From positions 18,600,001 to 18,664,000 of the forward strand of contig OY740811.1 in assembly GCA_963514005.1 (NCBI GenBank): a stretch of DNA of 64,000 bases. The letters run 5' to 3'. Shown here piece by piece: positions 1,188 through 37,900 of the stretch. Each line of letters begins with the position of its first letter. The first letter of the stretch is position 1. The position numbers and the translations under genes are program-made. Source of the stretch: Raja brachyura (taxonomy: Eukaryota). Below the pieces are notes generated by a model that was given only the letters and a program-made list of their open reading frames with translations, made no database searches and was not told where the DNA came from.

Positions 1188-1931
1188 CAGGAGGTTCGGT
1201 AACTTGACCTGAAAGGAGAAACAAACAATTCAGTTAATTATCATTTGAAACATGTTGAGCTCAAATGATTGGCGGCAAATATCTGCCCCATCTGTGCAAA
1301 AGTCTGCGCACCACACGTTGAGCTCATCAATCACAACAGAAGTCATAGACCCTGAGAAGAGTTAGCCACCCTCCATCTAAATGTGAAAGAAGGAAGAGTG
1401 TTTAAAGTGGGGACGATTTTACTATTGGAACGTCTGAAAACAGAGGGACAGGGAGAAGGTGGCTAAGCAAAAGGTGAGTGTTATTACAGCCAGTTTTATA
1501 AGCTCCACTCGTAATTCAGTAGCTAATAATCACAAATGTTTTTTACAATTGTCTCATACTCACAAAAGGAATCGGGGCAGGTGAATCGTATTCTGTAATC
1601 TTGACATGCCCGATCAGGTTGGTTGCTGTTCATACAAAAGAATCCAGTAGAAACGTTGCAACTGTTGAGTAGAATGTAGGGAGGTGTGAAACCACTGATG
1701 CACTTTGAATGAAATAACAGAAGTGCTATAATATGGCTGGCTCTATTTTGTACCTGGCAATGTTCTCTCCAGTCTGTGAGGCTGGAATCCCTGACGTTGT
1801 CTCCACCTCACAGGCAATTGGATCCGTGCAGATCTGACCAGGATTCTCATTTCGCAGATGGGGGAAGACTTCATAATCTCCAAATCCTGATGGGTTATCA
1901 CGGTCAAACCACGCAGTTTTGCAATCCCCTA
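1188..1931 (-). CDS. CysD module 1: exons A 1754-1931, B 1564-1661, C 1188-1208
   Basis: GT-AG exons; translation VGDCKTAW...ENIA/SCNVS...NSNQPDRAC...SF/CQVTEPP. Confidence 0.88.
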
Positions 1932-4900
1932 CTGAAGAGCAGAAAGAGAAAGTAGATTCAATGTGAACATTGGGTCTGATGGATTGACAAAATGTTGTAG
2001 CAAATTAGCTCGGCAGGTCGCATCTCTAGAGGAATGAAATAGGTGACGGTTCATGTCGAGACCATTCATCAAACTGAGAGACAGGTGAGAGAGAAATCAG
2101 AGGTTTGAAAATGTACAGAACAAATCAGAGCCTGCACTAATGGCCAAAGAGCCCACATGGTTCTTTGTTGACTTTGGAGGAGATAATAACGAGTGGATAC
2201 AAACAGTAAAACTAGCAGGGTTACACAAAAAGGTGGAGAAACTCAGCGGGTGAGCGGCATCTAAGGGGCGAAGGAGATAGGCGACGTTTCGGGTCGAGAC
2301 CCTTCTTCAGACTGGTCAGGCATCAGGGAAACGAGAGATATAAACAGTGATGTGGAGAGATAAAGAGAGTTGGAGGGAAGGGGGTATCACAGAGGGCGAG
2401 CAGTTAGAGAGGAGGTTGTGAAACAGTCTTCGTAGGGAGGAGGAGAACTTCTTCAAAGTAGGCATACCTTGAGGAGATATCGCAGTGGAGTGGACAAAGT
2501 GTTAAAGAAGGAACTGCAGATGCTGGAGAATCGAGGGATACACAAAAAGCTGGAGAAACTCAGCGGGTGCAGCAGCATCTAAGGGGCGAAGGAGATAGGC
2601 GATGTTTCGGGTCGAGACCCTTCTTCAGACTGGTCAGGGATCAGGGAAACGAGAGATATAAACAGTGATGTGGAGAGATAAAGAGAGTTGGAGGGAAGGA
2701 TGATTGTGGCACGTGAGGGATGAAGGGAGAACGAATGCAAGGGTTACTTTAATTTAAAATAACCAATATTCATAATGCTGGGTTGTAAGCTGAGCAAGCG
2801 AAATATGAGGTGCTGTTCCTCTAATTTGCGTGTGTCCAAACTCTGACAGTGGAGGTGGACCAGGACAGAACGAGTCTGTCTCCACTATATGAATGCTTTT
2901 CTGTCCTGTGCTGCTTCCACTGTGAGAGTAAGGCCTTATGCAAAAAGGAGTAACAGCGCCTCATATTTCAGTTGTGTATCTTACAATCCAATGGTATGCA
3001 TATTAATATTTCTAATTTCATGCAATCTTCGCCTTCCACCTCTCTCCGTCTCTTCTCCTCCTTACTTGACCGATGAGGTTTATTATTGTGGGCTCTTTTG
3101 CCATCGGTGCCAGATCTGATTTGTTCTGTACCTTTTCATACCTCTAGTTTCCCTCTCCCCTGTCTCTCGGAATAAAGACAGGTTTTGAACCTAAACGCCA
3201 TCTATTCCAGCTCCTTCCACCTTGTTCACTGTCCTCCCATAACTTCACTTATTTTTTCTTGCCCAATATTTGCTGATGTAGGTGACTGTTTCCTCTCACT
3301 GCTGTCATTGGTCCTGACACCTTCAGATGAATCGCCATCACTCTCTCCTCAATAAAATCCCAACTTTCTAAAATATCAGCCTGACACCAAGTCACAGAAT
3401 TACAACAAAATCCATGTCTATTTTTTCTGGTCCTCCTCATGACAATCCCACCTGCACTCCTGAATCATGCCTGGCAGATTACTCAAATGAGTCTTAAGTG
3501 AGTCTCTTTCCTCACATGAACAAGTGCTGTCAGTGGACCGGAGAAACGCAGACGTTACTCCTTTGTTGAAGAGAGGGGAAAAGGTGATGGCAAAACCGAC
3601 AGGCCTTTACGATAAATTAACACCACACATGAAGTTGATAAGAGTACTTTAGTTGCCTTCTAACACATAAATCAGAACATCAGTAAAGAAAGTAAGAATT
3701 AGGAGCAGGAGTCACAGATATGGCGATTTGAATTAGCAATCTTCGACTTCAGGTCCATTTACCAGCACTATCAACATATTGTTGAATGTCCAGTAGAAAC
3801 ATTGGTTCTAGTCTGAAGAATGGTCCTCACTAGAAACATCACCTATTCAAGATTCCCAGAGATGATGCCTGACACGATCAGTTACTCAAGCACTTTGTTT
3901 CTTATATTTGTAATCCAATATCCGCTGTACTTTGTATTCCTAGTCTTTGCAATTTCTTCTCATGCGGCTAAATCACAATTTCTGCTGTCTTTCCCGTGAA
4001 TCTGTGTCGCATTCCCTCCATGGCATGGACATATTTTGTTTCCTTAATAAGCTGATAACTACAAGCAACTCTCGAGGTTCAGTCGCACTGAAGTGCCTAT
4101 AGTCTGTTGTGGCAATTTTTTTAACTTGGTTATTATGTAGCGGACATTAAAACATACTGGATGACGCTCGTAAGAGCTTTTATATTGCTGTTAACATTGC
4201 CTTCTTATAATGGGAGTGATGTACTCACCAGGAGGTTCGGTAACTTGACCTGAAAGGAGAAACAAACAATTCAGTTAATAATCATTTGAAACATGTTGAG
4301 CTCAAATGATTGGCGGCAAATATCTGCCCCATCTGTGCAAAAGTCTGCGCACCACACGTTGAGCTCATCAATCACAACAGAAGTCATAGACCCTGAGAAG
4401 AGGCAGCCACCCTCCATCTAAATGGACTGTGAAAAAAGGAAGAGTGTTTAAAGTGGGGACGATTTTACTATTGGAAAGTCTGGAAACAGAGGGACAGGAA
4501 GAAGGTGGCTAAGCAAAAGGTGAGTGTTATAACAGCCAGTGTTATAAGCTCCACTCATAATTCAGTAGCTAATATTCACAAATGATTTTTTACAATTGTC
4601 TCATACTCACAAAAGGAATCGGGGCAGGTGAATCGTATTCTGTAATCTTGACATGCGCGATCAGGTTGGTTGCTGTTCATACAAAAGAATCCAGTAGAAA
4701 CGTTGCAACTGTTGAGTAGAATGTAGGGAGGTGTGATAAAGTAGTTGATAAAACCACTGATGCACTTTGAATGAAATAATAGAAGTGCTATAATATGGCT
4801 GGCTCTATTTTGTACCTGGCAATGTTCTCTCCAGTCTGTGAGGCTGGAATCCCTGACGTTGTCTCCACCTCACAGGCAATTGGATCCGTGCAGATCTGAC

Positions 4901-10900: not shown

Positions 10901-13900
10901 ACGCAGAAGTTACTCCTTTGTTGAAGAGAAGGGCAAAGGTGATTGCAAAATCGACAGGCCTTTACATAAATTAACACCACACATGAAGTTGATAAGAGTA
11001 CTTTAGTTGCCTTCTAACACATAAATCAGAACATCAGTAAAGAAACTAAGAATTAGGAGCAGGAGTCAAAGATATGGCCATTTGAATTAGCAATCTTCGA
11101 CTTCAGGTCCATTTACCAGCACTATCAACATATTGTTGAATATTCAATAGAAACGTTGGTTCTAGTCCGAAGAATGGTCCCGACTAGAAACATCACCTAT
11201 TCAAGATTCCCAGAGATGATGCCTGACACGATCAGTTACTCAAGCACTTTGTTTCTTATATTTGTAATCCAATATCCGCTGTACTTTGTATTCCTAGTCT
11301 TTGCAATTTCTTCTCATGCTGCTAAATCACAATTTCTGCTGTCTTTCCCGTGAATCTGTGTCGCATTCCCTCCATGGCATGGACATATTTTGTTTCCTTA
11401 ATAAGCTGATAACTACAAGCAACTCTCGAGGTTCAGTCGCACTGAAGTGCCTATAGTCTGTTGTGGCAATTTTTTTAACTTGGTTATTATGTAGCGGACA
11501 TTAAAACATACTGGATGACGCTCGTAAGAGCTTTTATATTGCTGTTAACATTGCCTTCTTATAATGGGAGTGATGTACTCACCAGGAGGTTCGGTAACTT
11601 GACCTGAAAGGAGAAACAAACAATTCAGTTAATAATCATTTGAAACATGTTAAGCTCAAATGATTGGCGGCAAATATCTGCCCCATCTGTGCAAAAGTCT
11701 GCGCACCACACGTTGAGCTCATCAATCACAACAGAAGTCATAGACCCTGAGAAGAGGCAGCCACCCTCCATCTAAATGGACTGTGAAAGAAGGAAGAGTG
11801 TTTAAAGTGGGGACGATTTTACTATTGGAAAGTCTGGAAACAGAGGGACAGGAAGAAGGTGGCTAAGCAAAAGGTGAGTGTTATTACAGCCAGTGTTATA
11901 AGCTCCACTCATAATTCAGTAGCTAATATTCACAAATGATTTTTTACAATTGTCTCATACTCACAAAAGGAATCGGGGCAGGTGAATCGTATTCTGTAAT
12001 CTTGACATGCCCGATCAGGTTGGTTGCTGTTCATACAAAAGAATCCAGTAGAAACGTTGCAACTGTTGAGTAGAATGTAGGGAGGTGTGAAACCACTGAT
12101 GCACTTTGAATGAAATAACAGAAGTGCTATAATATGGCTGGCTCTATTTTGTACCTGGCAATGTTCTCTCCAGTCTGTGAGGCTGGAATCCCTGACGTTG
12201 TCTCCACCTCACAGGCAATTGGATCCGTGCAGATCTGACCAGGATTCTCATTTCGCAGATGGGGGAAGACTTCATAATCTCCAAATCCTGATGGGTTATC
12301 ACGGTCAAACCACGCAGTTTTGCAATCCCCTACTGAAGAGCAGAAAGAGAAAGTAGATTCAATGTGAACATTGGGTCTGATGGATTGACAAAATGTTGTA
12401 GCAAATTAGCTCGGCAGGTCGCATCTCTAGAGGAATGAAATAGGTGACGGTTCATGTCGAGACCATTCATCAAACTGAGAGACAGGTGAGAGAGAAATCA
12501 GAGGTTTGAAAATGTACAGAACAAATCAGAGCCTGCACTAATGGCCAAAGAGCCCACATGGTTCTTTGTTGACTTTGGAGGAGATAATAACGAGTGGATA
12601 CAAACAGTAAAACTAGCAGGGTTACACAAAAAGCTGGAGAAACTCAGCGGGTGAGCAGCATCTAAGGGGCGAAGGAGATAGGTGACGTTTCGGGTCGAGA
12701 CCCTTTTTCAGACTGGTCAGGCATCAGGGAAACGAGAGATATAAACAGTGATGTGGAGAGATAAAGAGAGTTGGAAGGAAGGGGGTATCACAGAGGGCGA
12801 GCAGTTAGAGAGGAGGTTGTGAAACAGTCTTCGTAGGGAGGAGGAGAACTTCTTCAAAGTAGGCATACCTTGAGGAGATATCGCAGTGGAGTGGACAAAG
12901 TGTTAAAGAAGGAACTGCAGATGCTGGAGAATCGAGGGATACACAAAAAGCTGGAGAAACTCAGCGGGTGCAGCAGCATCTAAGGGGCGAAGGAGATAGG
13001 CGATGTTTCGGGTCGAGACCCTTCTTCAGACTGGTCAGGGATCAGGGAAACGAGATATATAAACAATGATGTGGAGAGATTAAGAGAGTTGGAGGGAAGG
13101 ATGATTGTGGCACGTGAGGGATGAAGAGAGAAGGAATGCAAGGGTTACTTTAATTTAAAATAATCAATATTCATAATGCTGGGTTGTAAGCTGAGCAAGC
13201 GAAATATGAGGTGCTGTTCCTCTAATTTGCATATGTCCGAACTCTGACAGTGGAGGTGGCCCAGGACAGAACGAGTCTGTCTCCACTATATGAATGCTTT
13301 TCTCTCCTGTGCCGCTTCCACTGTGAGAGTAAGGCCTTATGCAAATTGGAGTAACAGCACCTCATATTTCAGTTGTGTATCTTACAACCCAATGGTATGC
13401 ATATTAATATTTCTAATTTCATGTAATCTTCGCCTTCCACCTCTCTCCGTCTCTTCTCCTCCTTACTTGACCGATGAGGTTTATTATTGTGGGCTCTTTT
13501 GCCATCGGTGCCAGATCTGATTTGTTCTGTACCTTTTCATACCTCTAGTTTCCCTCTCCCCTGTCTCTCGGAATAAAGACAGGTTTCGAACCTAAACGTC
13601 ATCTATTCCAGCTCCCTCCATCTTGTTCACTGTCCTCCCATAACTTCACTTATTTCTTCTTGCCACATATTTGCTGATGTAGGTGACTGTTTCCTCTCAC
13701 TGCTGTCATTGGTCCTGACCCCTTCAGATGAATCGCCATCACTCTCTCCTCAATAAAATCCCAACTTTCTAAAATATCAGCCTGATACCAAGTCACAGAA
13801 TTACAACAAAATCCATGTCTATTTTCTCTGGTCCTCCTCATGACAATCCCACCTGCACTCCTGAATCATGCCTGGCAGATTACTCAAATCAGTCTTAAGT

Positions 13901-22900: not shown

Positions 22901-25900
22901 TCTTCGATTTCAGATCCATTTACCAGCACTATCAACATATTGTTGAATGTCCAGTAGAAACGTTGGTTCTAGTCCGAAGAATGGTCCCGACTAGAAACAT
23001 CACCTATTCAAGATTCCCAGAGATGATGCCTGACACGATCAGTTGCTCAAGCACTTTGTTTCTTATATTTGTAATCCAATATCCGCTGCACTTTGTATTC
23101 CTAGTCTTTGCAATTTCTTCTCATGCGGCTAAATCACAATTTCTGCTGTCTTTCCCGTGAATCTGTTTCGCATTCCCTCCATAGCATGGGCATATTTTGT
23201 TTCCTTAATAAGCTGATAACTACAAGCAACTCTCGACGTTCAGTCGCACTGAAGTGCCTATAATCTGCTGTGGCAATTTTTTTAACTTGGTTATTATGTA
23301 GCGGACATTAAAACATACTGGATGACGCTCGTAAGAGCTTTTATATTGCTGTTAACATTGCCTTCTTATAATGGAGTGATGTACTCACCAGGAGGTTCGG
23401 TAACTTGACCTGAAAGGAGAAACAAACAATTCAATTAATAATATTTTTTAAACATGTTGAGCTCAAATGATTGGCAGTAAATATCTGCCCCATCTGTGAA
23501 AGAGTCTGCACACCACACGTTGACCTCATCAACCACAACAGAACTCATGGAACCAGAAAAGAGGCATGACACCCTCCATCTAAATGGACAGTGAAAGAAG
23601 GAGGAGTGTTTAAGGTGGGGATGAATTTACTATTGGAAAGTCTGGAAATCAGCAAAAGGAGGGACAGGAAGAAGGTGGATAAGCTAAATGTGAGTAGTTA
23701 TTACAATGTTATAATCAGCTTAACTCATAATTCAGTAGCTAATATTCACAAATGATTTTTTATGATTGCCTTATACTTACAAAAGGAATCGGGGCAGGTG
23801 AATCGTATTCTGTAATCTTGACATGAGAGATCACGTTGGTTGATGTTCAGACAAAAGAATCCAGTAGAAACGTTGCAACTGTTGAGTAGAATGTAGGGAG
23901 GTGTGATAAAGCAGTTGATAAAATTACTGATGCTCTTTGAATGAAATAATAAAAGTGCAATAATATGGCCGGCCATATTTTGTACCTGGCAATGTTCTCT
24001 CCAGTCTGTGAGGCAGGAAGCCCTGACGTTGTCTCCACCTCACAGGCGAGTGGATCCGTGCAGATCTGACCGGGATTCTCATTTCGCAGATGGGGGAAGG
24101 TTTCATAATCTCCAAATCCTGATGGGTTATCACGGTCAAACCACGGAGTTTTGCAATTCCCTACTGAAGAGCAGAAAGAGAAAGTAGATTGAAAGTGAAC
24201 ATTGGGTCTGACATATTGACACAAAATGATGGAGAAAATTAGCACCAAGTAGCGTCTCTAAAGGTAATTAGGAGCAGGAGTCAAAGATATGGCCATTTGA
24301 ATTAGCAATCTTCGACTTCAGGTCCATTTACCAGCACTATCAACATATTGTTGAATGTCCAGTAGAAACGTTGGTTCTAGTCCGAAGAATGGTCCCGACT
24401 AGAAACATCACCTATTCAAGATTCCCAGAGATGATGCCTGACACGATCAGTTACTCAAGCACTTTGTTTCTTATATTTGTAATCCAATATCCGCTGTACT
24501 TTGTATTCCTAGTCTTTGCAATTTCTTCTCATGCGGCTAAATCACAATTTCTGCTGTCTTTCCCGTAAATCTGTTTCGCATTCCCTCTATGGCATGGACA
24601 TATTTTGTTTCCTTAATAAGCTGATAACTACAAGCAACTCTCGAGGTTCAGTCGCACTGAAGTGCCTATAATCTGTTGTGGCAGTTTTTTTAACTTGGTT
24701 ATTATGTAGCGGACATTAAAACATACTGGACGACGCTCGTAAGAGCTTTTATATTGCTGTTAACATTGCCTTCTTATAATGGGAGTGATGTACTCACCAG
24801 GAGGTTCGGTAACTTGACCTGAAAGGAGAAACAAACAATTCAATTAATAATAATTTTAAACATGTTGAGCTCAAATGATTGGCAGTAAATATCTGCCCCA
24901 TCTGTGAAAGAGTCTGCACACCACACGTTGACCTCATCAACCACAACAGAACTCATGGAACCAGAAAAGAGGCATGACACCCTCCATCTAAATGGACAGT
25001 GAAAGAAGGAGGAGTGTTTAAGGTGGGGATGAATTTACTATTGGAAAGTCTGGAAATCAGCAAAAGGAGGGACAGGAAGAAGGTGGATAAGCTAAATATG
25101 AGTAGTTATTACAATGTTATAATCAGCTTAACTCATAATTCAGTAGCTAATATTCACAAATGATTTTTTATTATTGCCTTATACTCACAAAAGGAATCGG
25201 GGCAGGTGAATCGTATTCTGTAATCTTGACATGAGAGATCACGTTGGTTGATGTTCAGACAAAAGAATCCAGTAGAAACGTTGCAACTGTTGAGTAGAAT
25301 GTAGGGAGGTATGATAAAGCAGTTGATAAAATTACTGATGCTCTTTGAATGAAATAATAAAAGTGCAATAATATGGCCGGCCATATTTTGTACCTGGCAA
25401 TGTTCTCTCCAGTCTGTGAGGCAGGAAGCCCTGACGTTGTCTCCACCTCACAGGCGAGTGGATCCGTGCAGATCTGACCGGGATTCTCATTTCGCAGATG
25501 GGGGAAGGTTTCATAATCTCCAAATCCTGATGGGTTATCACGGTCAAACCACGGAGTTTTGCAATTCCCTACTGAAGAGCAGAAAGAGAAAGTAGATTGA
25601 AAGTGAACATTGGGTCTGACATATTGACACAAAATGATGGAGAAAATTAGCACCAAGTAGCGTCTCTAAAGGTAAGTTCCTGGAAAGTCATGTTTGATAA
25701 ACCTTCTTGAATTTTTTGAAGAGGTTACTAGGGAAATTGATGAGGGTAAAGCAGTGGATGTTGTCTATGTGGATTTCAGTAAGGCCTTTGACAAGGTTCC
25801 CCATGGAAGGTTGGTTAAGAAGGTTCAATCTTTGGGTGTTAATGGCGGAGTAGCAAGATGGATTCAACAGTGGCTGAATGGGAGATGTCAGAGAGTAATG

Positions 25901-28900
25901 GTGGATGGCTGTTTGTCAGGTTGGAAGCCGGTGACCAGTGGGGTGCCTCAGGGATCTGTGTTGGGTCCACTGTTGTTTGTCATGTACATCAATGATCTAG
26001 ATGATGGGGTGGAAAATTGGATAAGTAAGTATGCAGATGATACTAAGATAGGGGGTGCTGTGGATAATGAAGTAGATTTTCAAAGTCTACCGAGAGATTT
26101 GGGCCATTTGGAAGAGTGGGCTGAAAGATGGCAGATGGTGTTTAATGCTGATAAGTGTGAGGTGCTACATCTTGGCAGGACAAATCAAAATAGGACGTAC
26201 ATGGTAAATGGTAGGGAATTGAGGAATGCTGTGGAACAGAGGGATCTGGGAATAACTGTGCATAGTTCCCTGAAGGTGGAATCGCATGCAGATAGGGTGG
26301 TAAAGAAAGCTTTTAGTATGCTGGCCTTTATAAATCAGAGCATTGAATATAGGAGTAGGGAAGTAATGTTAAAATTGTACAAGGCATTGGTAAGACCAAT
26401 TCTGGAGTATGGTGTACAATTTTGGTCGCCAAATTATAGGAAGGATGTCAACAAAATAGAGAGAGTACAGAGGAGATTTACTAGAATGTTGCCTGGGTTC
26501 CAGCAACTAAGTTACAGAGAAAGGTTGAATAAGTTAGGTCTTTATTCTTTGGAGTGCAGAAGGGTAAGGGGGGACTTGATTGAGGTCTTTAAAATGATGA
26601 AAGGGATTGACAGAGTTGACGTGGATAAGCTTTTCCCATTGAGAGTAGGAAAGATTCAAACAAGAGGGCATGACATGAGAATTAAGGGACAGAAGTTTAG
26701 GGGTAACATGAGGGGGAACTTCTTTTCTCAGAGAGTGGTGGCTGTGTGGAATGATCTTCCTGCAGAAGTGGTGGAGGCAGGATCGATTTTAACATTTCAA
26801 AGTAAAGTGGATAGGTATATGGACGGGAAAGGAATGGAGGGGTATGGTCTGAGTGCAGGCAGATGGGACTAGGGGAAAATAAATGGTCGGCATGGACCGG
26901 AAGGGCCGGGAAGGCCTGTTTCCGTGCTGTAATTGTTATATGGTTATATCGTTATATGGTAAGGAATAGGTGACGTTTCATGTTGAGACCCTTCTTCAGA
27001 CTGAGAGTCAGTGGAGAGCGATATTAGGGGTATGGAAAGGTTCAGAACAATTCAAAGCCTGCACTAATGGCCAAAGAGCCCACATGGTTCATTGTTGGCT
27101 ATGGAGAAGGTGATAATGAGGGGATACAAACAGTAAAACTAGCAGGATGATAAGGGGTGGTGAGGGAAGAAGAAAGAGGGAATGCAAGGGTTACTTTAAT
27201 TTAAAATAATCAATATTCATAATGCTGGGTTGTAAGCTGCGCAAGCGAAATATGAGGTGCTGTTCCTCTAATTTGCGTGTGTCCGAACTCTGACAGTGGA
27301 GGTGGCCCAGGACAGAACGAGTCTGTCTCCACTATATGAATGCTTTTCTGTCCTGTGCCCCTTCCACTGTGAGAGTAAGGCCTTATGCAAATTGGAGTAA
27401 CAGCACCTCATATTTCAGTTGTGTATCTTACAACCCAATGGTATGCATATTAATATTTCTAATTTCATGTAATCTTCGCCTTCCACCTCTCTCCGTCTCT
27501 TCTCCTCCTTACTTGACCGATGAGGTTTATTATTGTGGGCTCTTTTGCCATCGGTGCCAGATCTGATTTGTTCTGTACCTTTTCATGCCTCTAGTTTCCC
27601 TCTCCCCTGTCTCTCGGAATAAAGACAGGTTTCGAACCTAAACGCCATCTATTCCAGCTCCCTCCACCTTGTTCACTGTCCTTCCATAACTTCACTTATT
27701 TCTTCTTGCCCAATATTTGCTGATGTAGGTGACTGTTTCCTCTCACTGCTGTCATTGGTCCTGACCCCTTCAGATGAATCGCCATCACTCTCTCCTCAAT
27801 AAAATCCCAACTTTGTAAAATATCAGCCTGATACCAAGTCACAGAATTACAACAAAATCCATGTCTATTTTTTCTGGTCCTCCTCATGACAATCCCACCT
27901 GCACTCCTGAATCATGCCTGGCAGATTACTCAAATGAGTCTTAAGTGAGTCTCTTTCCTCACATGGACAAGTGCTGTCAGAGGACCGGAGAAACGCAGAA
28001 GTTACTCCTTTGTTGAAGAGAGGGGCAAAGGTGATTGCAAAAACGACAGGCCTTTACGATAAATTAACACCACACATGAAGTTGATAAGAGTACTTTAGT
28101 TGCCTTCTAACACATTAATCAGAACATCAGTAAAGAAAGTAAGAATTAGGAGCAGGAGTCAAAGATATGGCCATTTGAATTAGCAATCTTCGACTTCAGA
28201 TCCATTTACCAGCACTATCAACATATTGTTGAATGTCCAGTAGAAACATTGGTTCTAGTCCGAAGAATGGTCCCGACTAGAAACATCACCTATTCAAGAT
28301 TCCCAGAGATGATGCCTGACACGATCAGTTACTCAAGCACTTTGTTTCTTATATTTGTAATCCAATATCCGCTGTACTTTGTATTCCTAGTCTTTGAATT
28401 TCTTCTCATGCGGCTAAATCACAATTTCTGCTGTCTTTCCCGTAAATCTGTTTTGCATTCCCTCCATGGCATGGACATATTTTGTTTCCTTAATAAGCTG
28501 ATAACTACAAGCAACTCTCGAGGTTCAGTCGCACTGAAGTGCCTATAATCTGTTGTGGCAGTTTTTTTAACTTGGTTATTATGTAGCGGACATTAAAACA
28601 TACTGTATGTCGCTCGTAAGAGCTTTTATATTGCTGTTAACATTGCCTTCTTATAATGGGAGTGATGTACTCACCAGGAGGTTCGGTAACTTGACCTGAA
28701 AGGAGAAACAAACAATTCAATTAATAATAATTTTAAACATGTTGAGCTCAAATGATGGGCAGTAAATATCTGCCCCATCTGTGAAAGAGTCTGCACACCA
28801 CACGTTGACCTCATCAACCACAACAGAACTCATGGAACCAGAAAAGAGGCATGACACCCTCCATCTAAATGGACAGTGAAAGAAGGAGGAGTGTTTAAGG

Positions 28901-31900
28901 TGGGGATGAATTTACTATTGGAAAGTCTGGAAATCAGCAAAAGGAGGGACAGGAAGAAGGTGGATAAGCTAAATATGAGTAGTTATTACAATGTTATAAT
29001 CAGCTTAACTCATAATTCAGTAGCTAATATTCACAAATGATTTTTTACGATTGCCTTATACTCACAAAAGGAATCGGGGCAGGTGAATCGTATTCTGTAA
29101 TCTTGACATGAGAGATCACGTTGGTTGATGTTCAGACAAAAGAATCCAGTAGAAACGTTGCAACTGTTGAGTAGAATGTAGGGAGGTGTGATAAAGCAGT
29201 TGATAAAATTACTGATGCTCTTTGAATGAAATAATAAAAGTGCAATAATATGGCCGGCCATATTTTGTACCTGGCAATGTTCTCTCCAGTCTGTGAGGCA
29301 GGAAGCCCTGATGTTGTCTCCACCTCACAGGCGAGTGGATCTGTGCAGATCTGACCGGGATTCTCATTTCGCAGATGGGGGAAGGTTTCATAATCTCCAA
29401 ATCCTGATGGGTTATCACGGTCAAACCACGCAGTTTTGCAATTCCCTACTGAAGAGCAGAAAGAGAAAGTAGATTGAAAGTGAACATTGGGTCTGATATA
29501 TTGACACAAAATGATGGAGAAAATTAGCACCAAGTAGCATTTCTAAAGGTAAGGAATAGGCGACGTTTCATGTTGAGTCCCTTCTTCAGACTGAGAGTCA
29601 GTGGAGAGTGATATTAGGGGTATGGAAAAGTTCAGAACAATTCAAAGCCTGCACTAATGGCCAAAGAGCCCACATGGTTCATTGTTGGCTATGGAGAAGG
29701 TGATAATGAGGGGATACAAACAATACATTTTTCAGGATGATAAGGGGTGGTGAGGGAAGAAGAGAGAGGGAATGCAACGGTTGAATTTAAAATAATGTAT
29801 ATTCATAATGCTGGGTTGTAAACTGAGCAAGCGAAATATGAGGTTCTGTTCCTCCAATTTGCATGTGGCAGGACTCTGACATTGGAGGGTGCCCAGGACA
29901 GAACGAGTCTGCCTGCACTGTCATCGTGCTTTTCTGTCCTGCACCACCTTCACTGTCAGAGTAAGGCCTTATGCAAATTGGAGTAACAGCACCTCATATT
30001 TTGGTTGGGAAGCTGACAACCCAATAGTTTGCATATTAATTTCTCTAATTTCATGTAATCTTTGCCTTCCAACTCTCTCCTTCTCTTCTCCACCTTAGTC
30101 GTCCGACAAGGTTTATTATTGTGGGCTCTTTGGCCATCGGTGCCAGCTCTACTTTGTTCTGTTCGTTTTCATACCTCTAGTTTCCCTCGCCCGTGTCTCT
30201 CAGACTGAAGACTGGTCTTGAAATAAAACAACATCTATTCATTTTCCCCAGAGATGCTGACCGACCCGCTGAGTAGCTCCAGCATTTTGAGAATATCATC
30301 GGAGTAAACAAGCATCTGTTGATCCGTTGTACACATTTGGTCTAGCAGACCTGATAGATTTGCTAACCTTGTTCGGCACAACTTACATGAACAATATTTC
30401 TCTTCAGAAAGCATCACATACTCAAGTACATCACATACTCAATATTGTTGAATATCTGGTAGAAACTTTGGTTCTAGTCCGAAGAAGGGTCCCGACTAGA
30501 AACATCACCTACTCATGAATCCCAGAGACGATGTCTGACGTGATCAGTTACTCCAGCACTTTGTTTCTTATTTTGTAATCCAATATCCGCTGTACTTTGT
30601 ATTCCTAGTCTTTGTAATTTCTTTGCAGTTTCTTCTCATGCGGCTAAATCACAATTTCTGCTACCTTTCCCGTGAATTTGTTTTGCATTGCCTCCATGAC
30701 ATGGACATATTTTGTTTCCTTAATAAGCTGATAACTACAAACAACCCTTGAGGTTCAGTCGCACTGTTGCGTCTATAATCTGTTGTGGAAGTTTTTTTAA
30801 CTTGGTTATTATGTAGCTGATATTAAAACATACTGGATGACGCTCATAAGAGCTTTCATATTGCTGTTAACATTGCCCTCTTTATAATGGGAGGGATATA
30901 CTCACCAGGAGGTTCGGTAACTTCACCTAAAAGGAGAAACAAACAATTCAGTTAAAAACATGTCTTTGAAACATGTTCAGATTTAATGATTGTCAGCAAA
31001 TATCTGCCCCATCTGTGCAAGAGTCTGCACATCACATGTTCTTGGTTCTTGGTTCTCGTAAAGAATTCGCACGTACACAGAGAAATCTTTACTACTACTT
31101 TATTGATTAAACACACACATCACTGCCCTAGCTGTATGTGGTCTGTCACGAATACTAGAGAGTGAGCTAAGGGTGGGAAGGTCACAATTATATTAAATGA
31201 TAAGGGAAGTGCTTAGAAAGGGCTAGGTCACCACTACTAAAGGTGTACACACATATCATCTACAGTTCTTGGTCGTCCAAAATATTCCAAATGGAATTTA
31301 AACTGGAGGTGGCGGAGGGTGGATTTAAGCAAAAAAGGATTCTTGGAGAAGAAGCGCTAACTTAAATTTGGTTGCGTCTGGTTGAGTAACTATGGTAGGG
31401 TGAAGACTATTCCATGCTTTAATTGTGCAGGGGAAAAATGAATTTCTGCACACATCTGTCTTGGTAGCTGGTATCTCAAATAGGGTTGAATGTCCTTGTC
31501 TGCTCCAGATAGATTTGGGTTTGGTGTAGGTTTGATAATCTCTGTCAAGTTGACCATTTTGTAAAAACAAGTCAAACTGTGAGCTTTACGTCTGTCTTGG
31601 ACAGGGTTCCACCCCAGTGATTTCAGAAGTTTGGTAACACTCGCTTCTCTCTCATAGGTATTCGTAACAAATCGAACTACCTGTCTTTGGACACGTTCGA
31701 TGCAAGAAAGGGACTGTCAATAAGGAGGAGTGTTTAAGGTGGGGTTGAAGTTACTATTGGAAAGTCTGGAAATCAGCAAACAACGGACAAGGAAGAGGGT
31801 GGCTAAGCAAAAGGTGAGTATTTATTACAGCCTGTGTTATAATCAGCTCCACTCATAATTCAGTAGCTAATATTCACAAATGATTTTTTACAATTGTCTC

Positions 31901-34900
31901 ATACTCACAAAAGGAATCGGGGCAGGTGAATCGTATTCTGTAATCTTGACATGTGCTATCAGGTTGGTTGCTGTTCATACAAAAGAATCCAGTAGAAACG
32001 TTGCAACTGTTGAGTAGAATGTAGGGAGGTGTGATAAAGTAGTTGATAAAACTACTGATGCTCTTTGAATGAAATAATAGAAGTGCAATAATATAGCCGG
32101 CTATAATTTGTACCTGGTAATGTTCTCTCCAGTCTGAGATGCCGGAATCCCTGACGTTGTTTCCACCTCACAGGCGATTGGATCCGTGCAGATCTGACCG
32201 GGGTTCTCATTTCGCAGATTGGGGAAGACTTCATAATCTCCAAATCCTGATGGGTTATCACGGTCAAACCACGCAGTTTTGCAATTCCCTACTGAAGAGC
32301 AGAAAGAGAAAGTAGATTCAAAGTGAACATTGGTTCTGATGGATTGACACAAAATGATGGAACAAATTAGCTAGGCAGGTCGCATCGCTAGAGTAAAGGA
32401 ATAGGTGATGTTTAATGACGAGACCTTTCTTCGGACTGACAGTCAGGGGAGAGAGAAATTAAAGGTGTGAAATGGTAGAGAACAAATCAGACCCTGACCT
32501 AATGGCCGACGAGCCCACATGGTCCATTGTTGGCTTTGGAGGAGGTGATAACAAGGGGATACAAACAGTAAAAGAAGCAGGATGATTAGGGCAGATGAGG
32601 GATGGAGAGAGAGGGCATGCAAGGATACACATGAAATAATGCTGGTTTGTAAGCTGAGCAAGTGAAATATGAGGTGCTGTTCCTTCAATTTGTATGTGGC
32701 CAGACTCTGACAGTGGAGGTGGCCCAGGACAGAACGGGTCTGCACTGTCAGAGTACTTTTCTGTCCTGAGCCACCTCCACGGTGAGTGTAAGGCCACAAG
32801 CATATTGGAGTAAGAACACCTCATACTTTGGGTGGGAAGCTTAAACCCAAAGTTGTGCATATTAATTTCTCTAATTTCATGTAATCTTTGCCTTCCACCT
32901 CTCTCCTTCTCCAACTGAGTCGTCCGATGAGGTTTATTATTGTAGGCTCTTTTGCCATCGGTGCCAGCTCTGATTTGTTCTCTGCCTTTTCATAGCTCTA
33001 GTTTTCCTCCCCCCTGACTCGCAGACTGAAAACAAGTCTCTAGCCGCAACACCATCTATTCCTTTTCTACAGAGATGCTGAGTAGCTCCAGCATTTTGTG
33101 TCTAACTTCAGAGTAAACCAGCATCTGCAGATCCTTTGTACACATTTGGTCTAATAGACCTGATAGTTTTGTTAACCATGTTGGGCACAACTTACATGAA
33201 CAATATTTCTCTTCAGAACGCATCACATACTCAAGCACATGAGACCTGGTCCCAGCTCCCTCCACCTTCTTCACTGTTCTGTCCATCACTTCATTTTCTT
33301 CTTCTTGCCCCATATTTGCTGATGATGGTGACTGTTTCTCTCACTGCTACCATTGGTCCTGACCCCTTCACATCAATCACCATCATTCTCTCCTCAATAA
33401 TATCCCAACTTTGTAAAATACCAAGTCACAGAATCAGTACGTAATCCATGTCTAGGTTTTCTGGTCCTCCTCGTGTCAATCCCACCTCCTGTGATCCTGA
33501 ATCATGCCTGGCAGAATACTCAAATGGCTCTTATTTGAGTCTCTTTCCTCATGTGAACAAGTGCTGTCAGAGGACCGGAGAAACGCAGAAGTTACTCCTT
33601 TGTTCAAGAGAGGGACAAAGATGATCCCAAAAAATGACAGGCCTTTACGATTAATCAACATCACACATGAAGTTGATGTGAGTACTCTAGTTGACTTCTA
33701 ACACATAAATCAGAACATCAATAAAGAAAGTAAGAATTAGGAGCAGGAGACAGAGATATGGCCATTTCAACCAGCAATCTTTGACTTCAGGTCCATTTAC
33801 CAACACTATCAACATATTGTTTAACATCCAGAAAACTAACAATCACTTCTGAATAACCTCGAATGCTCTCTGGAATGAAGAATGACAAAAATACACCACC
33901 TTCCGAGTGAAACAATTTATCGTATTTCAGTCCCAAAATATCATCCTCTCATTCTGAGACAGTGGTGCATGTAACTGGAGTCCAAAGCGACAGGTATGAT
34001 TTCCATTCTACAATCCCTAGAGAAAAAGGTTCTAGTCTGAAGAAGGATCCCGACTAGAAACATCGCCTATTCATGATCTCAGAGATGATGCCTGACACGA
34101 TCAGTTACTCCACACTTTGTTTCTTATTTTGTATTCGAATATCTGCTGTACTTTGTATTCCTATTTTTTGCAATTTCTTTTATGTGGCTAAATCACAACT
34201 TCTGCTACCTTTCCCGTGAATCTGTTTCGCATTCCTTCCATGGCATGGACACCTTTCACTTTCTTAATAAGCTGCTAACTACAAGCAACTGTTGAGGTTC
34301 AGTTGCACTGTTGCGTCTATAATCTGTTGTGGCAGTATTTTAACTTGGTTATTATGTCGCGTATATTAAAACATACTGGATGAAGCTCATAAGAGCTTTC
34401 ATATTGCTGTTAACATTGCCCTCTTTATAATGGGAGGGGTATACTCACCAGGAGGTTCGGTAACTTCACCTAAAAGGAGAAACAAACAATTCAAGTTCAA
34501 GTTCAAGTGAGTTTATTGTCATGTGTCCCTGATGTGACAATGAAATTCTTGCTTTGCTTCAGCACAACAGAACATAGTAGACAGTGACTACAAAACAGAT
34601 CAGTGAGTTCATATACCATTATATAAATGTATACACACATGAATAAATAAACTGATAAAGTGCAAATAACAGATAATGGGTTATTAGTTTAGTTAATTCG
34701 GATAATTCAGTTAATTATCCTTTGCAACATGTTCAGATTTAATGATTGTCAGCAAATATCTGCCCCATCTGTGCACGAGTCTGCACACCACACGTTGGCC
34801 TCATCAACCACATCAGAACTCATAGAACCAGAGATGAAGCATGCCACCCTCCAACCAACGGTTCTTGGTTCATGGTCGTCCAAAATATTCCAAATGGAAT

Positions 34901-37900
34901 TTAAACTGGAGGTGGCGGAGGGTGGACTTAAGCAAAAAAACGTATTATTGGAAAAGAAGCGCTACCTTAAATTTAGTTGCGTCAGGTTGAGTAACTATGG
35001 TAGGGTGAAGACTATTCCATGCTTTAATTGTGCAGGGGAAGAATGAATTGCTGTACACATCTGTCTTGACAGCTGGTATCTCAAATTGGATCGTATGCCC
35101 TAATCTGATCCTAATAGAGTTGGGTTTGGTGTAGGTTTGATAATCTCTGTCGAGTTGACCATTTAACATTTTGTAAAAACAAATCAAACAGTGAGCTTGC
35201 TTCTCTCTCATAGGTATTCGTAACAAATTGAGCTACCTGTCTTTGGACACGTTCGATTGAAGAAAGGGACTGTCAATAAGGAGGAGTTTTTAAGGTGGGG
35301 TTGAATTTATTATTGGAAAGTCTGGAAATCATCAAACAAGGAAGAGGGTGACTATGCAAAATGTGAGTCTTTATTACAGCCTGTGTTATAATCAGCTCCA
35401 CTCATAATTCAGTAGCTAATATTCACAAATGATTTTTTACAATTGTCCCATACTCACAAAAGGAATCGGGGCAGGTGAATCGTATTCTGTAATCTTGACA
35501 TGAGCCATCAGGTTGGTTGCTGTTCATACAAAAGAATCCAGTAGAAACGTTGCAACTGTTGAGTGAAATGTAGGGAGGTGTGATAAAGTAGTTGATAAAA
35601 CTACTGATGCTCTTTGAATGAATTAATAGAAGTGCAATAATATAGTCAGCTATATTTTGTACCTGGTAATGTTCTCTCCAGTCTGAGATGCCGGAATCCC
35701 TGACGTTGTTTCCACCTCACAGGCGATTGGATCCGTGCAGATCTGACCGGGATTCTCATTTCGCAGATTGGGGAAGACTTCATAATCTCCAAATCCTGAT
35801 GGGTTATCACGGTCAAACCACACAGTTTTGCAATTCCCTACTGAAGAGCAGAAAGAGAAAGTAGATTCAAAGTGAACATTGGTTCTGATGGATTGACACA
35901 AAATGATGGAGCAAATTAGCTAGGCAGGTCGCATCTCTAGAGGAAAGGAATAGGTGATGTTTAATGACGAGACCTTTCTTCGGACTGACAGTCGGGGGAG
36001 AGAGAAATTAGAGGTGTGAAAAGGTAGAGAACAAATCAGACCCTGACCTAATGGCCTAAGAGCCCACATGGTCCATTGTTGGCTTTGGAGGAGGTGATAA
36101 CAAGGGGATACAAACAGTAAAAAAGCAGGATGATTAGGGCAGGTAAGGGATGGAGAGGGAGGGAATGCAAGGGTTACATGAATTTAAAATAATCAATATA
36201 CATAATGCTGGTTTGTAAGCTGAGCAAGTGAAATATGAGTTGCTATTCCTTCAATTTGTATGTGACCACACTCTGACAGTGGAGGTGGCCCAGGACAGAA
36301 CGGGTCTGCACTGTCAGAGTACTTTTCTGTCCTGAGCCACCTCCACGGTGAGAGTAAGGCCATAAGCATATTGGAGTAAGAACACCTCATATTTTGGTTG
36401 GGAAGCTTAAACCCAAAGTTATGCATATTAATTTCTCTAATTTCATGTAATCTTTGCCTTCCACCTCTCTCCTTCTCCAACATAGTCGTCCGATGAGGTT
36501 TATTATTGTAGGCTCTTTTGCCATCGGTGCCAGCTCTGATTTGTTCTCTGCCTTTTCATAGCTCTAGATTCCCTACCCCTGAATCGCAGACTGAAGACAG
36601 GTCTCGAGCCGCAACGCCATCTATTCCTTTTCTACAGAGATGCTGAGTAGCTCCAGCATTTTGTGTCTATCTTCGGAGTAAAACCAGCATCTGCAGATCC
36701 TTTGTACACATTTGGTCTAATGGACCTGATAGTTTTGTTAATCTTGTTGGGCACAACTTACACAAATACTATTTCTCTTCAGACCGCATCACATACTCAA
36801 GCACATGAGACCTGGTCCCAGCTCCCTCCACCTTCTTCACTGTTCTGTCCATCACTTCATTTTCTTCTTCTTGCCCCATATTTGCTGATGTTGGTGACTG
36901 TTTCTCTCACTGCTACCATTGGTCCTGACCCCTTCACAGCAATCACCATCATTCTCTCCTCAATAATATCCCAACTTTGTAAAATACCAAGTCACAGAAT
37001 CAGTACGTAATCCATGTCTAGGTTTTCTGGTCCTCCTCGTGTCAATCCCACCTCCTGCGATCCTGAATCATGCCTGGCAGAATACTCAAATGGCTCTTAT
37101 TTGAGTCTCTTTCCTCATGTGAACAAGTGCTGTCAGAGGACCGGAGAAACGCAGAAGTTACTCCTTTGTTCAAGAGAGGGACAAAGATGATCCAAAAAAT
37201 GACAGGCCTTTACGATGAATCAACACCACACATGAAGTTGATGTGAGTACTCTAGTTGACTTCTAACACATAAATCAGATCAATCAAGAAAGTAAGAATT
37301 AGGAGCAGGAGACAGAGATATGGCCATTTCAACCAGCAATCTTTGACTTCAGGTCCATTTACCAGCACTATCAACATATTGTTTAACATCCAGAAAACTA
37401 ACAATCACTTCTGAATAACCTCGAATGCTCTCTGGAATGAAGAATGACAAAAATACACCACCTTCCGAGTGAAACAATTTATCGTATTTCAGTCCCAAAA
37501 TATCATCCACTCATTCTGAGACAGTGGTGCATGTGCCTGGAGTCCAAAGTGACAGATATGATTTTCCATTCTACAATCCCTAGAGAAAAAGGTTCTAGTC
37601 TGAAGAAGGATCCCGACTAGAAACATCGCCTATGCATGATCTCAGAGATGATGCCTGACACGATCAGTTACTCCACACTTTGTTTCTTATTTTGTATTCA
37701 AATATCTGCTGTACTTTGTATTCCTATTTTTTGCAATTTCTTCTCATGTGGCTAAATCCCAATTTCCGCTACCTTTCCCGTGAATCTGTTTCGCATTCCT
37801 TCCATGGCATGGACACCTTTCGTTTTCTTAATAAGCTGATAACTACAAGCAACTGTTGAGGTTCAGTTGCGCTGTTGCGTCTATAATCTGCTGTGGCAGT

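What the first reader, a model, noticed from the sequence alone, without database searches (positions are those of the whole stretch)
2220..2696. Retrozyme-like 1.5-mer element with two hammerhead ribozyme motifs, in sense orientation within the host intron
Seen: a 477-bp insertion made of one ~318-nt monomer plus a ~160-nt partial repeat. Each repeat carries CUGAAGA-A-GGGUC-UC-GACCC-GAAAC(G/A)UC on the minus strand, the two motifs are 318 nt apart, and no ORF is called there. Established: Penelope-like elements and animal non-LTR retrozymes carry minimal type I hammerheads with palindromic stem III that act as dimers, and an extra A after A9 is tolerated in natural hammerheads. Inference: the insert is a reverse-transcribed copy of a ~318-nt circular or tandem RNA. 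Host transcription could cleave the intron or release a monomer RNA. Stem I is only about 2 bp and the second motif has lost the ACGU palindrome, so activity is uncertain.
Basis: partly seen in the sequence, partly recalled or inferred. Interest (0 to 1): 0.7.

Follow-up and report, generated by a model that had tools for sequence, protein, structure and literature searches.

The report
Deleted Penelope element in tandem, decaying
This is a short, decaying copy of a common fish jumping gene that has lost almost all of its coding part and was pasted in as one and a half head-to-tail units, each with a self-cutting RNA motif; it is a tidy example of a known kind of element and probably no longer does anything.

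Summary
In detail: a 480-bp insert (2220-2696 plus a 3-bp AGG overlap) with a 318-nt period and two minimal type I hammerhead cores, in sense orientation in an intron of a tandem WxxW-domain gene. Every part of the unit maps to a Penelope-like element (PLE): 3' UTR end, hammerhead, ~35-nt tail, leader, and the first 33 codons of a PLE RT/GIY-YIG ORF (1 of 5000 shuffles scored as well). These are fused back to the 3' UTR by a deletion of about 2.6 kb. The fusion point occurs twice, so the template was multimeric or circular. The 3' end lies where many family copies end. The insert sits inside an older PLE relic. A second copy at 12620-13099 came from host-unit duplication. Only 1 of 4 cores is intact, changes look neutral, stem I is 2 bp, and the circle is not unusually structured. 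Verdict: a non-autonomous, retrozyme-like PLE derivative of a described kind, probably inactive now. Whether the template was a circle, and whether the unit is a dispersed family, remain open.

The parts
2217..2699 (-). Whole insertion: 480 bp plus the 3-bp AGG ambiguity; 1.5 units of a 318-nt deleted PLE
   Evidence: filled versus empty paralogous sites; period
2685..2699 (-). Lead-in of the first repeat: last 15 nt of the ORF remnant (codons 29-33); 5' truncation point; shows the fusion point is present twice
   Evidence: identical to 2381-2367; family copies diverge at 2366 (table 7)
2629..2684 (-). End of PLE 3' UTR (pseudo-LTR), first copy
   Evidence: aligns with the 3' UTR of older PLE relics in the window; common family sequence up to the 2366 equivalent
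2601..2628 (-). Minimal type I hammerhead core, upstream copy; stem III palindrome lost (ACAU); predicted cut after 2601
2534..2600 (-). Pseudo-LTR segment from the cut site to the common 3' end zone
   Evidence: loose ends at 2534-2549 in 4 of 4 runs
2500..2533 (-). ~35-nt PLE 'tail', present after the first repeat only
   Evidence: depth falls after ~2500; tail described in 10.1101/2021.04.23.441226 and PMC11167929
2466..2499 (-). 5' leader before the PLE start codon
   Evidence: position between tail and ATG; inference
2367..2465 (-). First 33 codons of a PLE RT/GIY-YIG ORF; fused at 2367/2366 to the 3' UTR (internal deletion of about 2.6 kb, inferred from ~900-aa relatives)
2311..2366 (-). 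End of PLE 3' UTR, second copy
2283..2310 (-). Minimal type I hammerhead core, downstream copy; the only one of four with intact core and ACGU palindrome; predicted cut after 2283
2217..2282 (-). 3' end of the insertion, stopping just before the tail; AGG at 2217-2219 is shared by target and element
   Evidence: (D3)
12618..13100 (-). Second copy of the whole insertion, made by duplication of the host unit; downstream core reads CUGAAAA (G8 lost), upstream core ACAU
   Evidence: same junctions in a paralogous site; cores
2744..2884 (-). Older PLE relic hosting the insertion: C-terminus of the GIY-YIG domain; stop codon 44 nt before the insert
2031..2216 (-). Rest of the older relic's 3' UTR with its decayed hammerhead (about 2075-2045)
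   Evidence: (D2)
2954..3209 (+). Inverted second PLE relic (head-to-head with the first)
   Evidence: (I1)
4229..4249 (-). Host 21-nt microexon upstream of the intron
   Evidence: GT/AG borders, 22 copies in the window
1754..1931 (-). Host exon downstream of the intron, first half of a WxxW (CysD) domain
   Evidence: Pfam PF13330 E 1.4e-09

Best explanation
The insert is a non-autonomous deletion derivative of a very abundant cartilaginous-fish Penelope-like element. Step 1 (shown by anatomy): a PLE lost nearly all of its ORF, leaving a 318-nt unit of 3' UTR end, minimal hammerhead, tail, leader and 33 codons. Step 2 (shown): the template carried this fusion point at least twice, so it was a head-to-tail multimer or a circle. 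Step 3 (inferred): a PLE RT/GIY-YIG protein acting in trans started cDNA synthesis at the usual internal site just before the tail, copied 480 nt and stopped 15 nt past the second fusion point. Step 4 (shown): it landed in the 3' UTR of an older PLE relic in a mucin-like gene intron, with a 3-bp overlap at both ends, and was later duplicated once with the host unit. Step 5 (inferred): it is decaying neutrally and releases no monomer RNA today. Linear multimer versus ribozyme-made circle cannot be told apart; I put them at about 60:40.
For: ORF start: best 2 of 305 distinct Met-started open 33-mers in the window are the two insert copies; 1 of 5000 shuffles matched the profile score; 11 of 33 ungapped identities from residue 1 with P0109, 0 of 2000 shuffles; P0109 has RT and GIY-YIG. 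The repeat aligns with relics whose upstream sequence encodes a GIY-YIG C-terminus. Family copies leave the unit at 2366 (loose ends listed in 3 of 4 runs), at 2437 (2 of 4) and at 2534-2549 (4 of 4) (1016 further rows not shown). Fusion point twice. Abundance: about 61,000 and 57,000 contigs laid in two runs, about 5,300 in each of two others; words held in 20 of 23 listed runs, 10 studies. Neutral decay: 2 of 12 changes in the repeats fall in the cores, 2.0 expected. Literature: partial tandems, 30-40 bp tail, inverted truncated neighbours; internal RT initiation bounding the tail and a cis-acting region in the ORF start; PLEs insert into or next to older copies; retrozymes derive from PLEs.
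Against: No autonomous parent was retrieved: the ORF remnant itself found no protein, and the link rests on N-termini of distant PLE proteins with an anchor motif I chose after seeing them (34 of 83 proteins had it); a plain HMM of those N-termini gave only E 0.028 over six frames. No genome was held, so other copies of the fused unit were not seen; none of the 32 listed contig pieces bridges the fusion point with 31 nt each side. The target is not AT-rich, unlike the ATT preference reported for PAc. If the two repeats were identical at birth the insert (about 2-2.4% change per copy) looks slightly older than the split of filled and empty host units (1.4-3.8% pairwise); CpG decay and conversion could explain this, untested.
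Confidence: 0.7

Rival explanations
1. One-off product of the PLE reverse transcriptase: a short linear PLE RNA running from the 2366 position to codon 33 was copied with repeated end-to-end template jumps (known for R2 RT, recalled), mimicking a rolling circle. No master unit and no family exist.
For: The bin next to the fusion point has the lowest depth in 4 of 4 runs, 0.009-0.21% of the hammerhead bin (summed contig depth is not copy number). No listed contig piece bridges the fusion point. The four pre-duplication differences between the repeats look like later changes from a common sequence, as far as one search covers them (2321 and 2538 window alleles are rare).
Against: Needs the same precise jump twice. 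Low depth near a boundary is expected with short contigs, and the runs may not be the window's species.
Confidence: 0.15
2. Composite made in place: ordinary 5'-truncated copies of an autonomous PLE inserted into one another, or a local 318-bp duplication, with no deleted template.
For: PLEs form partial tandems and insert next to older copies. One search lists many low-depth joints of tail end to hammerhead start (2311-2314 to 2500-2508), so head-to-tail composites are common. The window holds 52 older relic hits besides the 4 young repeats.
Against: The first repeat starts with 12-15 nt of ORF-derived sequence identical to the internal fusion, which independent insertions would not give twice. 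No partially filled site among 9 paralogous sites.
Confidence: 0.08
3. Active retrozyme at this locus: host transcription folds a double hammerhead, cuts the intron at 2601 and 2283 and releases a 318-nt RNA that is ligated into a circle and may affect the host gene.
For: Two cores 318 nt apart in sense orientation. Unit length is near the 363-bp chondrichthyan average in 10.64898/2026.07.22.740005. A PLE hammerhead can be protein-assisted (PMC11167929).
Against: A-C mismatch in the dimer stem III in 2 of 2 copies; G8 lost in one core. Stem I 2 bp; stem II probability 0.03 in the full RNA; local folds no better than shuffles (197 and 185 of 200 fold as well). Forcing the double hammerhead costs 26-27 kcal/mol (no active control was folded, so weak). 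Circle z -0.92. 8 of 9 Xenopus dimers did not cleave in vitro. The ORF-start bins are relatively lower in the two RNA-guess runs than in the other two (weak).
Confidence: 0.07

Closest known systems
Minimal hammerheads in PLE pseudo-LTRs (Cervera and de la Pena 2014, PMC4209133; parts 1-2 of 4 read)
   Same: Type I core, extra nucleotide after A9, G10.1-C11.1 pair, palindromic 15.2-16.2 without loop 3, found genome-wide as pieces of truncated PLEs.
   Different: Helix I only 2 bp (as in their Drosophila virilis variant) and helix II 4 bp; cartilaginous fish are not named in the parts I read; here two motifs flank a deleted ORF 318 nt apart, not a 3-kb ORF.
Animal non-LTR retrozymes as non-autonomous PLE derivatives (Li, Clavereau, Pollet 2026, 10.64898/2026.07.22.740005; parts 1-3 of 5 read; supplements closed)
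   Same: Tandem unit of a few hundred bases with a type I hammerhead, homologous to a PLE pseudo-LTR, found in a chondrichthyan, often intronic (about 43% in Xenopus).
   Different: Only 1.5 units and one intact core, so it misses their 'active' criterion; Tandem Repeats Finder does not call it. They report similarity to PLE termini; a retained ORF start and a mapped deletion point are not in the text I read.
Classical non-LTR retrozymes of coral, mussel and axolotl (Cervera and de la Pena 2020, PMC7229834; parts 2-4 of 6 read)
   Same: Unit size in the 150-450 bp range, non-coding, more-than-unit insertion as predicted by their circular-template model.
   Different: They carry canonical hammerheads, form highly self-paired circles and are abundantly expressed. 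This unit has a minimal motif and a circle that folds no better than shuffles.
Canonical EN+ PLEs, probably Neptune/Nematis type; PAc of Anolis as the mechanistic model (PMC11167929, parts 1-2 of 4 read)
   Same: Order hammerhead, internal RT start, tail, ORF start; 5' truncation; tail at one end only; insertion into a PLE 3' end.
   Different: No RT or endonuclease. In PAc the ORF starts inside the hammerhead; here the ATG lies 136 nt after the cut site. Clade not tested with a tree.
Non-autonomous Chlamys PLEs such as MRC1 (10.1101/2021.04.23.441226; passages read)
   Same: [quoted passage not shown]
   Different: Algal, N-terminal-EN clade, mostly without hammerheads.

Membership tests
Minimal PLE hammerhead (PMC4209133) | Conserved core CUGANGA / GAAA / UH in type I order | tested here: met
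   3 of 4 copies; the fourth lacks G8
Minimal PLE hammerhead (PMC4209133) | Extra nucleotide after A9 and G10.1-C11.1 pair | tested here: met
   4 of 4 copies
Minimal PLE hammerhead (PMC4209133) | Palindromic 15.2-16.2 allowing a dimer stem III | tested here: inconclusive
   ACGU in 2 downstream copies, ACAU in 2 upstream copies
Minimal PLE hammerhead (PMC4209133) | Helix I of 4-5 bp (2 bp in the D. virilis variant) | tested here: inconclusive
   2 bp, no stable extension found
Minimal PLE hammerhead (PMC4209133) | Self-cleavage as a dimer | not testable with these tools
   needs in vitro assay
Non-LTR retrozyme | Head-to-tail unit of about 150-450 bp with a type I hammerhead in each unit | tested here: met
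   318-nt period, 1.5 units, two cores
Non-LTR retrozyme | [quoted passage not shown] | tested here: not met
   1.5 units; 1 of 2 cores intact in the first copy, 0 of 2 in the second
Non-LTR retrozyme | Canonical hammerhead with a long helix I and loop 1-loop 2 contacts (classical type) | tested here: not met
   minimal motif, no Rfam match
Non-LTR retrozyme | Stable, highly self-paired circle | tested here: not met
   -45.5 kcal/mol against shuffles -41.8 +/- 4.0, z -0.92, 45% paired
Non-LTR retrozyme | No protein-coding capacity | tested here: met
   only a 33-codon remnant
Non-LTR retrozyme | Dispersed multi-copy family of the same unit | tested here: inconclusive
   no genome; no listed contig piece bridges the fusion point; the second copy is a host duplication
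Non-LTR retrozyme | Expressed as linear and circular monomer RNA | not testable with these tools
   only contigs were available
Non-LTR retrozyme | Target-site duplication longer than 4 bp when present | tested here: not met
   3-bp AGG that is also element sequence at both ends
Non-autonomous PLE derivative | Pseudo-LTR homologous to the 3' UTR following a GIY-YIG ORF end | tested here: met
   (shown through the older family in the window)
Non-autonomous PLE derivative | Partial tandem, 5' truncation, 30-40 bp tail at one end only | tested here: met
Non-autonomous PLE derivative | Sequence derived from the PLE body | tested here: met
   33-codon ORF start
Autonomous PLE | ORF with RT and GIY-YIG endonuclease between the pseudo-LTRs | tested here: not met
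   no such ORF in the insert
Neptune/Nematis clade | CX2-5CxxC linker between RT and EN, and RT phylogeny | tested here: inconclusive
   linker seen in relatives P0027 and P0109 (feature); parent protein not retrieved, no tree built

The most novel reading that the evidence does not exclude
The insert is the fossil of a rolling-circle reverse transcription: a hammerhead-processed 318-nt circle, cut down to just the cis signals a Penelope protein needs (ribozyme, RT start site, tail, leader, first 33 codons), was copied 1.5 times round and belongs to an undescribed dispersed family in skates and rays. It would be a natural minimal substrate for a Neptune-type PLE and a snapshot of a retrozyme being born from a PLE.
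Probability: 0.22. Interest if true: 0.55.

Novelty: new member of a known kind. Interest (0 to 1): 0.3.

Why it matters
As found, modestly. It is a clean single-locus example, with empty sites beside it, of how a retrozyme-sized tandem unit can be built from a Penelope-like element: each piece can be named and the deletion point is seen twice. That fits the 2026 proposal that animal retrozymes are non-autonomous PLE derivatives and adds that the ORF start can be kept, which in the Anolis element holds the protein-binding region (PMC11167929). If a dispersed family and a circle were shown, the 318-nt unit would be a ready-made minimal template for testing whether PLE proteins copy circular RNA, an open question. 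An effect on the host mucin-like gene is unlikely.

Tried and rejected
Rfam: 0 matches in the window at gathering score; 1 chance snoRNA match at E 0.24 in 1900-2900. Tandem Repeats Finder: 0 rows. No genome held. DNA pattern scans: 0 in viral contigs, 0 and 1 in metagenome contigs, 0 in prokaryote genomes; these collections do not hold the host, so the blanks mean nothing. The one hit, L001, has a similar core with a different stem III and no shared flanks or PLE ORF on inspection; dropped. Direct protein searches with the ORF remnant found nothing (Pfam). The ESM Atlas gave only weak leads for the relic peptide; Pfam did not recognise that 46-aa piece. A consensus structure for the tail region across 12 young and old copies gave 0 pairs; the single-sequence tail hairpin is only z -1.94, 6 of 200 shuffles, so I claim no conserved structure. 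'Go-back' joints at 2594-2600 to 2283 are not evidence of a circle: any hammerhead-spanning contig gives them because the laid stretch starts and ends at the cut site. The lack of changes in the middle 152 nt between the two copies (0 of 8, P 0.048) was not taken as selection. Back-splicing as the origin of the fusion point was considered and left unsupported: the family's upstream letters at 2366 do not end in AG (read by eye). Lunse et al. 2017 could not be read; I know it only through a review passage. Paper searches were made; none listed a paper describing this family, but Repbase, Dfam and the preprint's supplements were not available, so it may well be catalogued.
Full report
Setting. 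The window is an array of 2.2-3.6-kb units of one gene on the minus strand. Each unit has a 21-nt microexon and two exons that together encode a WxxW (CysD) domain: 22 copies of each exon motif, Pfam Mucin2_WxxW at E 1.4e-09 and 1.4e-07. The host is probably a skate or ray; this is an inference from named protein hits to a relic in the window (Rhinoraja, Leucoraja, Amblyraja, Narcine). No whole genome was held.

The observation. Of 9 sites with the same left anchor, 2 are filled and 7 are empty. AGG is also the element's own sequence at both ends (2534-2536 and 2379-2381), so a 3-bp duplication and microhomology cannot be told apart. The period is 318 nt. The core pattern is far above chance in the window, 15 against 0.97, though the copies are not independent. 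The insert lies in sense orientation in a 2.3-kb intron. A second copy at 12620-13099 has the same junctions in a paralogous unit and differs at 8 of 481 positions, so it is a host duplication.

What the unit is made of. I laid contigs of 4 of the 23 listed runs on the predicted monomer 2283-2600. About 61,000, 57,000, 5,300 and 5,400 contigs were laid, so this is a very abundant repeat in several organisms. Summed depth is in the millions or hundreds of thousands over the hammerhead and its downstream 100 nt, 20 to 1000 times lower over the middle, and lowest next to position 2366 (the tool warns that this is no copy number). Loose ends show where other copies leave the unit: at 2366 (listed in 3 of 4 runs), at 2437 (2 of 4) and at 2534-2549 (4 of 4); 1016 further rows were not shown. 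So most family members have other sequence upstream of 2366.

The middle segment holds an ATG at 2465 and 33 codons up to 2367. Direct searches with this peptide found nothing. I reached relatives indirectly. The insertion site lies in an older relic whose upstream part encodes 46 residues matching 105 proteins at E<=0.01. Of 14 of these scanned, 4 have GIY-YIG at or above Pfam's cut-off and 2 more below it. An alignment of 7 of them retrieved 83 long proteins, among them RT plus GIY-YIG proteins of about 900 aa. 34 of the 83 carry an early KT-x-x-x-SH motif, usually 35-40 residues after a Met. Against a profile of the preceding 42 columns the insert peptide scores best with its Met 39 residues before the motif; 1 of 5000 shuffles did as well, and the two insert copies rank first and second of 305 distinct Met-started open 33-mers in the window, more than 11 points above the third. 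It shares 11 of 33 ungapped identities with P0109 from residue 1; 0 of 2000 shuffles reached that score against any Met start. I chose the anchor motif after seeing the proteins, and a cruder HMM gave only E 0.028. The loose-end consensus at 2437, translated by hand, continues in the same frame with a similar peptide in two runs, but agreement is only about 0.6. I conclude that the middle segment is the start of a PLE ORF.

The repeat itself aligns with the 3' UTRs and decayed hammerheads of the older relics; 52 such relic hits lie in the window besides the 4 young repeats. So the unit reads: last 56 nt of 3' UTR, hammerhead, 67 nt, tail of about 35 nt, leader, 33 codons, then fusion back to the 3' UTR. 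The first repeat begins with 15 nt identical to codons 29-33, 3 of them shared with the target. The fusion point is therefore present twice, and the template was a multimer or a circle.

Mechanism. PLE insertions are described as 5'-truncated partial tandems with a 30-40 bp tail at one end and often an inverted truncated neighbour (10.1101/2021.04.23.441226, passages). In the Anolis element reverse transcription starts at two internal sites that bound the tail, the cis-acting region lies in the ORF start, and hammerhead cleavage is protein-assisted and not needed for insertion in vitro (PMC11167929, parts 1-2 of 4). The insert stops just before the tail, in the zone of family loose ends, and carries the tail only internally. 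It sits 44 nt after the stop codon of an older PLE relic, next to an inverted relic; a review states that PLEs tend to insert into or beside older copies (PMC6765202, passages). The simplest reading is mobilisation in trans by a PLE protein (inferred). The target is not AT-rich, which differs from the Anolis preference.

Is it active? Probably not. Four differences between the repeats predate the duplication and eight follow it. Two of the 12 fall in the cores, as expected by chance. Both upstream cores read ACAU, giving an A-C mismatch in the dimer stem III; the second copy's downstream core has lost G8. Only 2310-2283 is intact. Stem I is 2 bp, stem II has probability 0.03 in the full RNA, and the predicted circle folds no better than shuffles, z -0.92. 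Forcing the double hammerhead costs 26-27 kcal/mol, without an active control for scale. Minimal PLE hammerheads cleave poorly even as dimers (PMC4209133), and 8 of 9 Xenopus dimers did not cleave. Release of a monomer needs both cuts. A weak single cut at 2283 is not excluded.

Against my reading. The parent element was not retrieved. No second independent locus with the fusion point was seen, and none of the 32 listed contig pieces bridges it, so a one-off template-jumping product remains possible. The implied age slightly exceeds the divergence of filled and empty host units. Circle versus linear multimer is undecided; the go-back joints are an artefact of where the laid stretch ends.

Comparison. 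It works like a non-autonomous PLE and is built like a non-LTR retrozyme. It fails several retrozyme criteria: two complete units with intact motifs, canonical hammerhead, self-paired circle, long target duplication. A 2026 preprint reports retrozymes in a chondrichthyan (mean unit 363 bp) and derives them from PLE pseudo-LTRs (10.64898/2026.07.22.740005, parts 1-3 of 5; supplements closed and may list this family). Classical retrozymes are in PMC7229834 (parts 2-4 of 6) and PMC7761336 (passages). A retained ORF start with a mapped, repeated deletion point was not in the text I read. Earlier notes of this scan held nothing for this sequence or genome; two notes from other genomes describe analogous PLE mini-elements, unchecked.

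Verdict. Real, correctly described, and a new member of a known kind. Interest 0.3.

Noticed in passing
window 1-64000, minus strand: One gene with 22 tandem units, each a 21-nt microexon plus two exons of a WxxW (CysD) domain; a NAGNAG-type acceptor (1931/1928 and paralogues). A mucin-like protein made almost only of CysD domains with very short linkers, if all exons are spliced together.
   Followed up: partly
window 2031-2884 (-) and 2954-3209 (+), and paralogous units: Head-to-head pair of old 5'-truncated PLE 3' ends carried in the host units; the GIY-YIG C-terminal frame is still open for 46 codons in several copies.
   Followed up: partly
window 1932-2030 (-): The 3' end of the old sense-strand PLE relic runs into the polypyrimidine tract and acceptor of the WxxW exon; the relic may supply part of the splice signal in the units. 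Not tested.
   Followed up: no
window 25676-26872 (+): 398-aa open frame with an RT domain (Pfam RVT_1 E 3.8e-23), a 5'-truncated LINE (CR1/L2-like by recall) inserted just downstream of a decayed hammerhead core at 26999-26972 (-), with loss of the adjacent host exon region in that unit.
   Followed up: partly
window 2473-2462 (-): The PLE start codon overlaps a splice-donor-like sequence (AG/GTATGC) in sense orientation within the host intron; PLEs are reported to have 5' introns near this boundary. Use not tested.
   Followed up: no
window 2490-2600 (-): The tail can pair with the sequence just after the hammerhead to enclose the common 3' end zone in a loop (z -1.94); no consensus support across old copies.
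   Followed up: partly
window 2382-2533 versus 12783-12934: 0 of the 8 differences between the two copies fall in the middle 152 nt (P 0.048); probably chance or gene conversion.
   Followed up: partly
L001 14-38 (-): A similar hammerhead core with a longer palindromic stem III in an unrelated, apparently animal, metagenome contig.
   Followed up: no
window 31040-31707, 34860-35260 and paralogues: Another repeat inserted in several units between the microexon and the second WxxW exon, possibly the 3' end of a different retroelement; not identified.
   Followed up: no
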